A stretch of DNA of 64,000 nt from Escherichia coli. Its GTDB lineage: Bacteria; Pseudomonadota; Gammaproteobacteria; Enterobacterales; Enterobacteriaceae. Below, piece after piece: positions 41,601 to 44,600 of this stretch (its first letter is position 1; every line of letters starts with the position of its first letter). The stretch is from assembly GCF_016026235.1 (NCBI RefSeq), contig NZ_CP065613.1. One strand, 5' to 3'. Made by a program: the position numbers.

Positions 41601-44600
41601 CGTCTTGCCTGTTTTTTTCGACTTTTGATAATCAGCGCATAGAGCCCGGATTCATTGACCAGCAAAGGCTTACGTCCCGAACCTAAGTAATCCTTATATT
41701 CGGTTTTATCTTCATCATCGATGGACTGAAGGGAGATAGCAGTATTTGTCAGCCCCAGCGCGTTACATATATCCACGGCAAAAAACCATGGTGTTGAATC
41801 AATGACCACACTACGAACTGATGACAACAATTCACCAGTGCTTGATTTAAAATCGAAAACTTTGATATTGTTTTTCACGTAATATCTCCGACGATAAACC
41901 CGACTGGCCGGTTTTCTCTGCCGGCCTTTCTTATTTCTGCCAACCAATAACCTGAAATAACCCCATTTTCGGGTGATACCAGCGAGTCCCTCGCGGTTCT
42001 GCTTCCTCCATAACCCGATAAAAAGCAGCCATAAACGGTTCCACAGCAACAATCGCGCGACGAGATAACAATCCATCCGGCGTCATAAATTCATGGGTAT
42101 CGGTAGGGATCTGATATGCGTTCACCAGATTGCGACATTTCGCATCTGACATACCGGTTTTTGCTTTCAGCTGGCGATATCCGGCATAGCCCTCACGAAT
42201 GGTACCCTTTTTGATTTGCTCAACTGTTTCGGCAACATGGCTGACTTTTTCTTCCATCTTGTCGAGGCGTTTTTGCTGACGAACTGCTTCAAGAGCCATC
42301 GCGGCAACCATTTCGATTTCGCTCATTGGCTTACGGATCTGTTCTTCCAGTTCGCGCCAGCGATCTACCAGGCGAGCAGTAAATTCAGGACAGAGCTGTG
42401 CGACGACAATGATACTGTCGCGCTTACCTTGCTCTCCTTCAAACAGGTAATGCTCATATTGAACTTTAAAACCTAAGTTATTGATTCTTTCGGAAACCTC
42501 AATTTGAGGAGACCGGACAACGCCACCTTTGGCTAATGTTTCAATAGTGCGTTTCACATTGTCATGACGTTTACCCACCAACTCTGCGATTTCAACGCTG
42601 GTCATGGATACTTTGTCGTTAAAAATTGCGGTGTTCACTGCCATCTCCTTACGGATAAATTCTTTTAAGATTCCGCACATTCGTACTTGTTGGTGCCGAA
42701 CCATCCTTCAGTTATCCTTTTGATCCCTATAAACAAAAGAACCAAAGGAGGTTCGACATGAAAGTTCAGGCCGTTGGTTTATTCTGGTTTCGCGATGCTA
42801 TTCAGTATCATGAGTTCAAAAAGATTTTTACTGATGCAGATGTGCTCTCCGACAGTTACACCGAGTGGAAACACGACGCTGAAAAATTGATTAAGCGTGT
42901 CGAAAGAAGCGGGCAACGAGTTATTAAAGTTGAAGCGGATACAACCGAGTTCATCACCTGGTGTACAAGCGAAGGCATTGGACTCAATGCCAAAGGTAGA
43001 ATGCAGTTCGCATCCTTTAAGGCTTACCAACAACTTCTCAGCGAACGCTAATGTGATTGGGGCAATCGAAATGGTTGCCCCATCGTATTTAATAGTTATT
43101 TTTTCGCTCATATCACCACCATCACTTCTCATCCTCTGTGTGCGCTAAGCTTGGATTTTGAGTTTTTGCGTAACGAATCAGGAATTCCATCTTCAGGGTG
43201 AGGATAAAGATCTGGCCTTAAGCCATGCGGCGTGACCTTCCATGCAACTACTTCACATACGCGTAAAACGAAACGGGCAGGAATTGTGCTTTTTGAAAAC
43301 CACTGATTCACCGCTTGCGGTGTCACACCCAGATTTCGCGCTATGGCATTTTGCGCAATTAATGCACGAAGTTTGTCGTAATCATTTCCTTTCATAACAA
43401 AGCACCAATATTAACTTTATGAATCAAGAATACATCAAGTTTAAATTAACATGCAAGTTGCAAAAGGATCGAATACACTAAAATCAAGTAAAGATTTATC
43501 CTTGTAAAGAAACCCACAGGATTTGGTCATGAAGAACGTCAAAAACACGGAAAATCGAATAGCCGCGATGCTGAAAGCAAAAGGATGGACTCAGGCTCAA
43601 CTGGCCCGCAAGTTAGGTGTGAGTGCGCAATCAGTGCAGTACTGGACAACAGGAAAAACATTTCCACGGAGTGATAAGCTCGCGCATTTATCAGAGATTA
43701 GCGGTTATCCACAATCCTGGTTCTTAGGTGAAGACTCCTCACCAACCTTTTCCTCGCAAGAGAAACACCAGACAAGAACAGATAGCGTCGTGTTTAATGT
43801 CCTTGATGTTGAGTTTAGTTGCGGTGATGGAACTCATGTCCGTGGTGACTTGATAGATGTAGTGCGCTCAATAGAACTTGATCCTGAATATGCCCGACGT
43901 CTTGTTGGAAATCGGGCATTCAAAAATATAGAAATAGGTAACGCCAGAGGAGACAGTATGGCTCCCACAATCTCACCTGGTGACCTTCTTTTTCTTGATA
44001 AGACAGTAACTTATTTTGATGGCGATGGTATTTATGCATTTTGTTTTGATGGAGAATGCTACGTGAAAAGGCTTCAAAAAATTGGAAGCAAAATCATGGT
44101 GTTATCTGATAACCCCAATTATCAACCATGGAGCATCGAAAAAGAGGGGTTAGCTCTGCTTTATATCCAGTCTAAAGTGATCTCATCAGTACCATTCAAC
44201 ATAAACAGATTTGGTTAGTCTTTGATTTTAACGGGCTTTGCCCGTTTTTTTCTGCCTAAAACACACGATATCAATTTTTTCTTGACACCCTATTTCTCAA
44301 AGCATAATATCGCACCATCAATTATAACTTGATTAAGTTCAATTTAAAATTGTTGGCGGATATATGAAGACACTAAAAGCAACTCCAGAAACAACTAATT
44401 TTATCAACTGCGGCTGTGTTACGCTTAAGGGCTTAGAACTTGATTCCTTTGCATTAAATATTGCAAATTTGCTAAGTGCTGTACGCACATTCCATCTTCT
44501 GGATTGTGCTCGCTCAAAGGAACTGGGCATTGAGGTAATGGAATTTATCCATGAATATGCTCTATCTGCGGCTTCTCCTGCACAACAAAAACAATCCTTC

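What the first reader, a model, noticed from the sequence alone, without database searches (positions are those of the whole stretch)
42758..43132. Overlapping sense and antisense ORFs between cro and the Rha gene
A 97-aa plus-strand ORF with a strong AGGAGG ribosome-binding site lies antisense to the early-right operon, fully overlapping a 117-aa minus-strand ORF in the position where cII would be expected. Only one is likely real; if it is the plus-strand gene it is transcribed against pR traffic, an unusual arrangement that might regulate the lysis-lysogeny decision.
Basis: seen in the sequence. Interest (0 to 1): 0.35.

Follow-up and report, generated by a model that had tools for sequence, protein, structure and literature searches.

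The report
Backward accessory gene beside prophage cro
The plus-strand ORF is a real, conserved small gene of unknown function that sits backwards in a fixed slot just after cro in many enterobacterial lambda-like prophages, while the overlapping minus-strand ORF is not a conserved protein, so this is a tidy but fairly ordinary prophage accessory gene.

Summary
Both ORFs exist as described. The plus ORF (42758-43051, 97 aa, AGGAGG 6 nt before the ATG) is the real gene. It matches phrog_4753 end to end and RefSeq annotates it as a hypothetical protein. Homologs of 70-93% identity occur in E. coli, Klebsiella, Salmonella, Serratia and Pectobacterium prophages, and about 970 remote clusters carry no family name. 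Substitutions pile up on its third codon positions (33/15/72).

The 117-aa minus ORF is the codon-aligned mirror frame. It has no family hit, is rarely called as a gene, and shows no protein-level constraint. It is not cII.

The gene always lies on the repressor's strand, just after cro (once after a cII-like gene), beside unrelated cro, cI and downstream genes. In about 13 E. coli genomes the same 71-nt upstream module drives a BssS-family gene instead, so this is an accessory-gene ("moron") slot. A plus-strand hairpin follows the gene, and a minus-strand hairpin lies over its start region.

The fold (pLDDT 96) resembles only the non-HTH C-terminal part of SO3848, an Aca2-like regulator. Function is unknown. 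Expression in the lysogen and silencing by pR traffic are inferred.

One open oddity: the mirror frame has fewer stops than expected (3 vs 10.4, P about 0.008) and is often coupled to cro and the next gene, so it may be translated as a bridge.

The parts
42758..43051 (+). Gene X: 97-aa protein, member of phrog_4753 and of a large unnamed family of about 100-aa cytosolic proteins
   Evidence: phrog_4753 E 1e-48 over 1-97/97. PGAP CDS WP_000867908.1. 18 close clusters and 972 remote clusters. Variable columns by codon position 33/15/72. AF2 pLDDT 95.9.
42746..42751 (+). Shine-Dalgarno AGGAGG, 6 nt before the ATG of X
   Evidence: Sequence. Conserved as GAGGGAGG or AAGGAGG in all close relatives.
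42690..42760 (+). Portable 5' module (putative weak promoter + leader + SD + ATG) shared with an alternative BssS-family cargo
   Evidence: About 13 E. coli genomes match only query bases 1-71 at 97%, and a BssS-family CDS follows the ATG there. Candidate sigma-70 elements are TTGGTG (42690-42695), 17 nt, TATCCT (42713-42718), read by eye. The consensus scan found no promoter.
43058..43082 (+). Stem-loop 7 nt after the stop codon of X (terminator-like or 3'-end hairpin of the + transcript)
   Evidence: Terminator-like hit. -19.9 kcal/mol, z -3.4. 96% of cells paired across 10 loci, 3 pairs with changes on both sides, and 22 G.U cells that pair only on the + strand. Fully compensated stem in the 59%-identical L058. 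The U-tract is poor in most lineages.
42779..43132 (-). 117-aa mirror ORF in the codon-aligned antisense frame. Not a conserved protein; possibly translated as a pass-through from cro
   Evidence: No PHROG or Pfam hit. Only 5 gene calls in the 5.8-billion-protein set. Amino-acid identity 41-70% where X shows 70-91%. Its ATG overlaps the cro stop as ATGA. The frame has few stops in relatives.
42694..42758 (-). Long hairpin in the pR-sense RNA spanning the antisense of X's start, SD and promoter region. Its inner stem-loop (42739-42754) is followed by TTTTGTTTAT (42729-42738)
   Evidence: RNAalifold gives 16 pairs at -14.6 kcal/mol on the - strand against -4.4 on the + strand. 91.7% of cells paired on - versus 80.6% when mirrored on +. 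Single-sequence folds give -30 to -42 kcal/mol, z -3.6 to -4.9. Terminator-like hit at 42754..42739.
43129..43395 (-). cro-like gene (first gene of the early-right operon), neighbour of the slot
   Evidence: PF15943 YdaS_toxin E 1e-12, weak P22_Cro, phrog_35.
43523..44218 (+). cI-like repressor (HTH + S24 peptidase), on the same strand as X
   Evidence: PF00717 and PF01381, phrog_4.
41931..42704 (-). Rha-family regulator, the next early-right gene after the slot (PGAP start at 42638)
   Evidence: PF09669, phrog_63. PGAP CDS in L001.

Best explanation
The plus-strand ORF is a genuine protein-coding gene, called X here. It is an accessory ('moron'-type) cargo gene that occupies a conserved slot immediately downstream of cro in lambdoid prophages of Enterobacterales. 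It is oriented against the early-right operon and along the repressor's strand.

Shown: X has its own strong ribosome-binding site. It shares a portable ~70-nt 5' module with an alternative cargo (a BssS-family gene) in the same slot. A stem-loop that works only on the plus-strand RNA follows it. Its product is a small cytosolic alpha/beta protein of a large, unnamed family. Its fold matches the non-DNA-binding C-terminal part of the Aca2-like protein SO3848.

Inferred: X is transcribed from a weak promoter in the 5' module while cI keeps pR shut, that is, in the lysogen. On induction it is silenced by head-on pR transcription and by pairing with the pR transcript. On this reading its orientation alone makes it a lysogen-only gene.

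The 117-aa minus ORF is the codon-aligned mirror frame of X. It encodes no conserved protein and is not cII. At most it is read by ribosomes leaving cro.
For: Coding status:
- Full-length phrog_4753 match for +, nothing for -.
- RefSeq annotates the + CDS.
- 97-aa homologs at 70-93% identity occur in five genera.
- 972 remote clusters give an AF2 model at pLDDT 95.9.
- Variable columns fall 33/15/72 on + codon positions 1/2/3. Pairwise identity is 70-91% in the + frame against 41-70% in the - frame.
- The minus product has only 5 database entries.

Slot and orientation:
- The order cI(+) | cro(-) | X(+) | next gene(-) holds in every prophage locus fetched with more than 50% identity.
- The neighbours vary: lambda-Cro, P22-Cro or YdaS-type cro genes, and Rha, CP76 cII-like, Bro-N or unknown downstream genes.
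- The same order is seen at 44% identity (L059) and 36% identity (L062).

Accessory slot:
- The identical 71-nt 5' module precedes a BssS-family gene (PF13991) between Rha and cro in about 13 E. coli genomes.

Transcript ends:
- A conserved + strand hairpin with covariation and + strand-only G.U pairs follows the gene.

Precedents:
- Genes antisense to prophage lytic genes that are independently transcribed in lysogens have been described (STMMW_20121 of ST64B, PMC7067206).
- So have repressor-strand ORFs antisense to the gene after ner (phage Fc02, PMC9936078).
Against: - No promoter passes the consensus scan. The candidate TTGGTG-17-TATCCT is weak, and two relatives carry a 2-nt deletion in its spacer.
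- The hairpin after X lacks a good U-tract in most lineages, so autonomous termination is not shown.
- X has the same G+C as its neighbours (0.44 vs 0.43-0.46), unlike many classical morons.
- No expression data were available.
- The very strict position next to cro, kept down to 36-44% identity, would also fit a role in the switch itself.
- The biochemical function is unknown: no Pfam, NCBIfam or PADLOC family and no informative domain fusions.
Confidence: 0.6

Rival explanations
1. X is the first gene of a distal repressor transcript. A promoter in the 5' module would drive X, read through the weak hairpin, run antisense across cro and continue into cI, as lambda pRE and Fc02 pC1 transcripts do. 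X would then be co-expressed with cI and would act in establishing or maintaining lysogeny, or in exclusion.
For: X is always on the cI strand and upstream of it, with only cro in between. It sits where lambda and 186 place their establishment promoters, next to a CP76 cII-like gene in L013 and L058. The hairpin after X has no proper U-tract in most lineages. Fc02 shows exactly this topology by RNA-seq, with an exclusion protein encoded in the upstream ORF.
Against: The 5' module travels with X or BssS beside unrelated downstream genes, so it cannot depend on a cognate cII-type activator. The BssS cargo in the same slot ends in a canonical bidirectional terminator. The hairpin after X is conserved with covariation, as expected of a 3'-end element.
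Confidence: 0.2
2. Both strands are translated. The minus ORF is kept open not for its protein but as a translational bridge. Ribosomes that finish cro re-initiate, translate across the antisense of X, melt the long minus-strand hairpin and deliver translation to the next early gene. This would shield some 450 nt of the pR transcript from Rho and from pairing with X mRNA.
For: Antisense-stop codons (TTA/CTA/TCA) in X number 3 observed against 10.4 expected in six operon-embedded lineages with saturated synonymous sites (Poisson P = 0.0075). All three lie within the first 27 codons of X. The one prophage copy outside an operon (L019) has 4 against 4 expected. The start overlaps or abuts the cro stop (ATGA, TGATG or a 1-nt gap), or uses a conserved AAGGGG-N6-GTG. 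The stop overlaps the next gene's start (ATGA or 8 nt) in the Klebsiella, Salmonella and Pectobacterium loci and in L018 and L059. A conserved minus-strand hairpin lies just before the next gene's SD.
Against: An open codon-aligned mirror frame is common by chance, about 19% per 97 codons. A chromosomal family member with same-strand neighbours also has an open mirror frame (L017). In the window itself the ORF stops 74-140 nt before Rha. L058 stops early. The BssS cargo in the same slot has no open mirror frame. The parts of the minus ORF outside X show no codon periodicity (19/14/23).
Confidence: 0.3
3. The minus ORF is the real gene (a cII-like early regulator) and the plus ORF is a spurious mirror ORF.
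For: The position after cro matches lambda cII. The start codon is coupled to the cro stop. Gene callers chose the minus ORF in L006 and in phage EKP1.
Against: Substitutions concentrate on what would be its first codon position. It has no family hit and 5 database entries against hundreds for X. X has about 970 remote homolog clusters and a pLDDT-96 fold. Real CP76 cII-like genes lie beside the cassette.
Confidence: 0.02
4. The main role of the plus transcript is as an antisense RNA. By pairing with, or colliding against, pR transcripts between cro and the next gene it would damp leaky early-right expression and stabilise lysogeny. The protein would be secondary.
For: Lambda uses antisense transcripts (oop, pRE, paQ) in the same operon; this rests on established knowledge of lambda. 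The prophage asRNA STnc6030 acts this way. The position and orientation of X are conserved while its neighbours change.
Against: The protein is under strong purifying selection and belongs to a family found outside phages. A different cargo can replace it in the slot.
Confidence: 0.15

Closest known systems
Prophage morons and accessory genes encoded antisense to lytic genes (for example STMMW_20121 of Salmonella prophage ST64B, PMC7067206; the moron concept from the HK97/HK022 comparison, from my own knowledge)
   Same: An extra gene inserted between conserved early genes, in the opposite orientation. It has its own RBS and a hairpin after the stop. It is present or replaced in otherwise syntenic prophages (X or BssS in the same slot).
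   Different: Base composition does not differ from the flanks. The promoter is not evident. The position is unusually fixed, always next to cro on the cI strand, across genera and down to 36-44% protein identity.
olg1/olg2 and gene 10 of Pseudomonas phage Fc02 (B3-like), PMC9936078
   Same: ORFs on the repressor's strand, upstream of the repressor, overlap in antisense the gene that follows the cro/ner-like gene of the early lytic operon. Both strands carry ORFs.
   Different: No sequence relationship was found. In Fc02 both products were shown to be made and to exclude phages, and the upstream ORFs are co-transcribed with the repressor from pC1. Here the minus product shows no protein-level conservation, and transcription was not measured.
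Lambda pRE transcript and oop RNA (antisense transcription within the early-right operon; established knowledge)
   Same: Leftward (repressor-sense) transcription arises between cro and the O/P region and is antisense to pR transcripts.
   Different: Those are a cII-activated cI mRNA leader and a small non-coding RNA. Here the antisense unit encodes a conserved 97-aa protein, and its 5' module does not travel with a cII gene.
SO3848 of Shewanella oneidensis (PDB 2OX6), an Aca2/YdiL-like HTH protein (PMC8434428)

Membership tests
phrog_4753 (phage protein family of unknown function) | Full-length match to the family profile | tested here: met
   E 1e-48, residues 1-97 on profile positions 1-97 of 97
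Moron / autonomous prophage accessory cassette | Extra gene present, absent or exchanged between otherwise syntenic neighbours | tested here: met
   The same slot between cro and Rha holds X in 74 E. coli genomes and a BssS-family gene in about 13, with the same 5' module. The flanks vary freely.
Moron / autonomous prophage accessory cassette | Own promoter | tested here: inconclusive
   The consensus scan finds none in 42300-43700. A weak TTGGTG-17-TATCCT lies in the conserved module.
Moron / autonomous prophage accessory cassette | Own terminator | tested here: inconclusive
   A conserved + strand hairpin follows the stop, with covariation. The U-tract is poor in most lineages.
Moron / autonomous prophage accessory cassette | Base composition distinct from neighbouring phage genes | tested here: not met
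   G+C is 0.439 for X against 0.425-0.463 for cI, cro and Rha.
Moron / autonomous prophage accessory cassette | Expressed from the repressed prophage | not testable with these tools
   Needs strand-specific RNA-seq of a lysogen.
cII-type lysogeny activator (lambda CII; 186 CII/CP76), for the minus ORF | Sequence membership in a CII family and an HTH | tested here: not met
   No Pfam or PHROG hit for the 117-aa product. CP76-type genes are separate neighbours in L013 and L058.
cII-type lysogeny activator, for the minus ORF | Purifying selection on the protein | tested here: not met
   The most variable positions are its first codon positions. Identity is 41-70% against 70-91% for X. No periodicity in the parts outside X.
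Aca2/YdiL/SO3848-like HTH regulators | [quoted passage not shown] | tested here: not met
Aca2/YdiL/SO3848-like HTH regulators | C-terminal beta/alpha dimerisation domain fold | tested here: met
Functional antisense gene pair (Fc02 olg1 / gene 10 type) | Both overlapping ORFs make proteins with a function | not testable with these tools
   Only indirect evidence: stop depletion in the mirror frame (P = 0.0075) and coupling to neighbours, but no protein-level constraint.
BssS family (PF13991) | Match to the BssS profile | tested here: not met
   X has no Pfam hit. Only the alternative cargo in L063 matches.

The most novel reading that the evidence does not exclude
The mirror ORF is kept free of stop codons by selection. 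On this reading the early-right operon stays translationally continuous across a gene inserted backwards into it. Ribosomes leaving cro re-initiate (ATGA overlap), read through the antisense of X, unfold a conserved ~65-nt hairpin and hand over to the next early gene. That protects the pR transcript from Rho and from the X antisense mRNA. The result would be an ORF selected for being translated, not for its product, as the price of hosting an antisense accessory gene.
Probability: 0.3. Interest if true: 0.6.

Novelty: new member of a known kind. Interest (0 to 1): 0.35.

Why it matters
The result settles which of two overlapping ORFs is the gene. It also corrects occasional annotations that call the wrong strand: phage EKP1, one Pectobacterium gene call, and 5 database entries.

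It defines a fixed antisense cargo slot right after cro that holds at least two alternative genes, X or BssS, behind one shared 5' module. That makes the slot a convenient place to look for lysogen-expressed functions in pathogenic E. coli, Klebsiella and Salmonella prophages.

It flags a family of about 1,000 clusters of roughly 100-aa proteins that has a confident fold, no name, and a structural link to the non-HTH half of an Aca2-like regulator.

If the stop-depleted mirror frame proves to be translated, it would be a clean natural test case. It would show how operons tolerate a gene inserted head-on, through translation-transcription coupling, Rho polarity and antisense pairing.

Tried and rejected
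**Family and structure searches**
- Pfam, NCBIfam and PADLOC scans of 100 family members gave no consistent family.
- Pfam scans of longer family members for informative fusions gave only DUF1186/SEC-C in one protein.
- The first AF2 run on 15 close sequences was poor (pLDDT 63) and was replaced by the 100-sequence run.
- Foldseek against PDB gave only a weak 2OX6 hit. BFVD gave two uncharacterised phage proteins. The afdb50 library was unavailable.

**Searches for more loci**
- Megablast against sequenced phages found only the cro part. tblastn found two distant copies, so the close family is essentially known only from prophages.
- The genome-contig scan returned a single locus.
- Viral scans with distant single proteins (P0021, P0025, P0027, P0029) and with a diverged alignment found nothing or failed.
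- A scan for the Klebsiella-type 5' module found only a contig already held.

**RNA and regulatory elements**
- Rfam found no known RNA in 42000-44500.
- A search for a nutL/nutR-type repeat between the pR and pL sides found only operator-like repeats.

**Ideas rejected**
- The minus-only N-terminal peptide motif (I-x-I-x-x-DGA-x-I-x-IAP) is not a conserved protein. The DGA..IAP part is the plus-strand hairpin read in the other frame, with G.U pairs valid only on +, and the flanks show no codon periodicity.
- Sequestration of the next gene's SD by the minus-strand hairpin rests on only 3 weak outer pairs in the alignment fold, so I do not claim it.
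Full report

Yes. One search lists a plus-strand ORF at 42758..43051 (97 aa) and a minus-strand ORF at 42779..43132 (117 aa). The plus ORF is preceded by AAAGGAGGTTCGACATG, with AGGAGG at 42746-42751, 6 nt before the ATG.

A Cro/YdaS-like gene lies at 43129..43395 (-). An HTH + S24 cI-like repressor lies at 43523..44218 (+). A Rha-family gene lies at 41931..42704 (-), and PGAP starts it at 42638.

Two refinements apply.
- The overlap is 273 nt, not complete.
- The two ORFs are codon-aligned, so each minus codon is the reverse complement of a plus codon. In that register the only plus codons that create a minus-strand stop are TTA, CTA and TCA. About 19% of 97-codon windows in long ORFs of these loci have an open mirror frame. 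The minus ORF in this one sequence is therefore not beyond chance.

The ATG of the minus ORF overlaps the cro stop as ATGA.

**2. Which ORF is the gene?**

The plus one.

*Family hits.* The plus product matches phrog_4753 over its whole length (E 1e-48). The minus product matches nothing in PHROGs or Pfam.

*Annotation.* The window is identical over this stretch to a prophage next to mlrA (yehV) in E. coli O121 and two other genomes. There PGAP annotates the plus ORF (WP_000867908.1, hypothetical protein) and not the minus one.

*Homologs.* The plus product has 18 close clusters, all about 97 aa and 72-93% identical, from E. coli, Klebsiella, Salmonella, Serratia and Pectobacterium. The minus product has 5 entries, all sporadic opposite-strand gene calls.

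*Substitution pattern.* This is the decisive test. In six distinct gene sequences the variable columns fall 33/15/72 on plus codon positions 1/2/3. Pairwise identity is 70-91% in the plus frame but 41-70% in the minus frame. A minus-strand protein under selection would show the opposite pattern.

*Remote family.* An exhaustive search finds 972 clusters (50% identity) at E <= 1e-3, mostly proteins of about 100 aa. A 100-sequence alignment gives an AlphaFold model at pLDDT 95.9.

**3. Where does the gene sit in relatives?**

Every prophage locus fetched with more than 50% identity shows the same order: cI-like (+), cro-like (-), X (+), next early gene (-).

The neighbours are not conserved.
- cro is of the lambda-Cro, P22-Cro or YdaS type, or has no named family.
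- The next gene is Rha, a CP76 (186 CII-like) gene (L013, E 8e-11), Bro-N, or one of various unknown genes.

The same order holds at 44% identity in a 55% G+C locus (L059: cro | X | Rha). It also holds at 36% identity in the record called Elizabethkingia phage EKP1, where the depositors annotated the minus ORF.

There are three exceptions.
- L058 (59% identity) has X after a cII-like gene.
- L019 (45%) has X near int/xis.
- L017 is a chromosomal, non-phage copy.

Sequenced phages hardly carry the gene: two distant tblastn hits.

**4. The cassette and the slot**

About 70 nt upstream of the ATG and about 35-65 nt downstream of the stop travel with X.

*Downstream.* A stem-loop at 43058-43082 is paired in 96% of cells across 10 loci. 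Three pairs change on both sides, and 22 G.U cells would be A.C mismatches on the other strand. The 59%-identical L058 has a fully compensated version. This is a plus-strand RNA element, either a terminator or a 3'-end hairpin. Its U-tract is poor in most lineages.

*Upstream.* The consensus scan finds no promoter. The best candidate, read by eye, is TTGGTG-17-TATCCT at 42690-42718.

*Alternative cargo.* A distant-mode search of E. coli genomes shows 74 genomes with the whole cassette. About 13 match only the first 71 nt (42690-42760) at 97%. In those, the ATG is followed by a different gene, a BssS-family protein (PF13991, E 1.3e-15). It sits in the same slot between Rha and a cro-like gene and in the same orientation.

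The place after cro is therefore an accessory-gene slot with exchangeable cargo behind a shared 5' module. X has the same G+C as its flanks.

**5. The pR-sense strand**

On the minus strand the antisense of X's start, SD and promoter region folds into a long hairpin (42694-42758).
- RNAalifold gives 16 pairs at -14.6 kcal/mol on the minus strand against -4.4 on the plus strand.
- 91.7% of cells pair on the minus strand, against 80.6% when the structure is mirrored on the plus strand. One pair alternates C-G and U-A across the loci.
- Single sequences fold at -30 to -42 kcal/mol, z -3.6 to -4.9.

In the window an inner stem-loop at 42739-42754 is followed by TTTTGTTTAT and scores as terminator-like. 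I cannot say what this structure does. A tR1-like attenuator, a processing site, or a coupling device are all possible. Rfam has no match in the region.

**6. Is the mirror ORF kept open?**

This part is not fully explained.

*Evidence that it is kept open.* In the Klebsiella, Salmonella, Pectobacterium and Phytobacter loci the mirror frame is open across all of X and both flanks. It starts 1 nt after the cro stop, or at a conserved AAGGGG-N6-GTG. It stops in an ATGA or 8-nt overlap with the next gene's start. L018 (52%) and L059 (44%) do the same.

Take six operon-embedded lineages whose synonymous sites are saturated relative to each other (third-position identity about 40-50%). X contains 3 antisense-stop codons where 10.4 are expected (Poisson P = 0.0075). 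All three lie in the first 27 codons. The prophage copy outside an operon (L019) has 4 against 4 expected.

*Evidence against.*
- The chance rate of an open mirror frame is high.
- The chromosomal copy L017 also has an open mirror frame.
- In the window the ORF ends 74-140 nt before Rha.
- The BssS cargo has no open mirror frame.
- The parts of the minus ORF outside X show no codon periodicity.

I rate a selected 'translational bridge' at about 0.3.

**7. What is the protein?**

The model is beta-alpha-(short alpha)-alpha-beta-alpha-alpha with two parallel strands. D26 is invariant, and W10, W37, G52, W68, C69 and R81 are nearly invariant across 100 diverse members.

No Pfam, NCBIfam or PADLOC family fits. 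Fusions are uninformative. Sources call members 'hypothetical' or 'putative cytosolic protein'. Two IMG/VR copies carry a premature stop, so the gene is dispensable at least sometimes.

**8. Most likely mechanism**

*Shown.* X is a real, conserved gene with a strong RBS. It lies in an exchangeable slot after cro, on the cI strand, and is followed by a plus-strand hairpin.

*Inferred.* X is transcribed from a weak promoter in the 5' module while cI keeps pR off. Head-on pR transcription and sense-antisense pairing shut it off on induction. Its orientation alone would then make it a lysogen-only gene.

[quoted passage not shown] In Pseudomonas phage Fc02, ORFs on the repressor strand overlap in antisense the gene after ner, are transcribed with the repressor from a distal promoter, and exclude superinfecting phages (PMC9936078).

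The main rival is that X is the leader gene of a distal cI transcript, as in Fc02 or lambda pRE. I cannot exclude it because the hairpin is a weak terminator. I rate it 0.2.

**9. Novelty and verdict**

The gene is already annotated as hypothetical and already sits in a PHROG. Antisense accessory genes in prophages are a known kind. This is a new, uncharacterised member with an unusually fixed position. Interest is 0.35.

The most novel reading not excluded is the translated bridge ORF (probability 0.3, interest 0.6 if true).

Noticed in passing
L063 3501-3820 (E. coli cq9), compared with window 42690-42760: The same 71-nt upstream module (97% identical) drives a BssS-family gene (PF13991) instead of X in about 13 E. 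coli genomes, in the same slot and orientation. That cargo ends in a canonical bidirectional terminator and has no open mirror frame.
   Followed up: yes
window 40815-40902 (-) and 40927-41003 (-): Rfam gathering-level hits to C4 antisense RNA (P1/P7 immI type, 80 bits) and to the isrK Hfq-binding RNA (62 bits). They lie side by side in the early-right operon, inside the ORF that PGAP calls an 'ash family protein', just downstream of the Bro-N/Ant-like gene. This suggests an RNA-controlled antirepressor module.
   Followed up: no
window 42694-42758 (-): A conserved long hairpin in the pR-sense RNA lies over the antisense of X's start region (-30 kcal/mol here, up to -42 in relatives). In the window an inner stem-loop is followed by a T-run. 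It might act as a tR1-like attenuator before Rha. Function unknown.
   Followed up: partly
L030 and L051 (IMG/VR copies), gene at 2501-2794: Two otherwise 93-99% identical copies of X carry a premature stop near codon 36, while the mirror frame stays open. X can be lost without loss of the element.
   Followed up: no
L062 (OM284015, 'Elizabethkingia phage EKP1') 3001-3396: This record has an enterobacterial-style lambdoid immunity region. Its annotation calls the minus mirror ORF (110 aa) rather than the X homolog, which is probably a wrong-strand call.
   Followed up: partly
window 43433-43499 and 44317-44355: Operator-like inverted repeats (ATCAAGT...ACTTGAT) flank the cI gene on both sides, consistent with OR and OL. 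No nutL/nutR-type shared element was seen.
   Followed up: no
window 35564-35874 (-); 8857-9036 (-); 7897-8100 (-); 62581-62661 (-): A cluster of four tRNA genes (Gly, Thr, Arg, and Met/Ile-type CAT) lies in the late region of the prophage. Elsewhere there are hits to the CssrB sRNA, IS009 and the Peptidase-S11 RNA motif.
   Followed up: no
window 41054-42704 and L001 5286-9039: The early-right operon of this prophage is unusually rich in antirepressor-type genes before the replication genes: Rha, Bro-N, two tandem ash-family genes and a second Rha.
   Followed up: no
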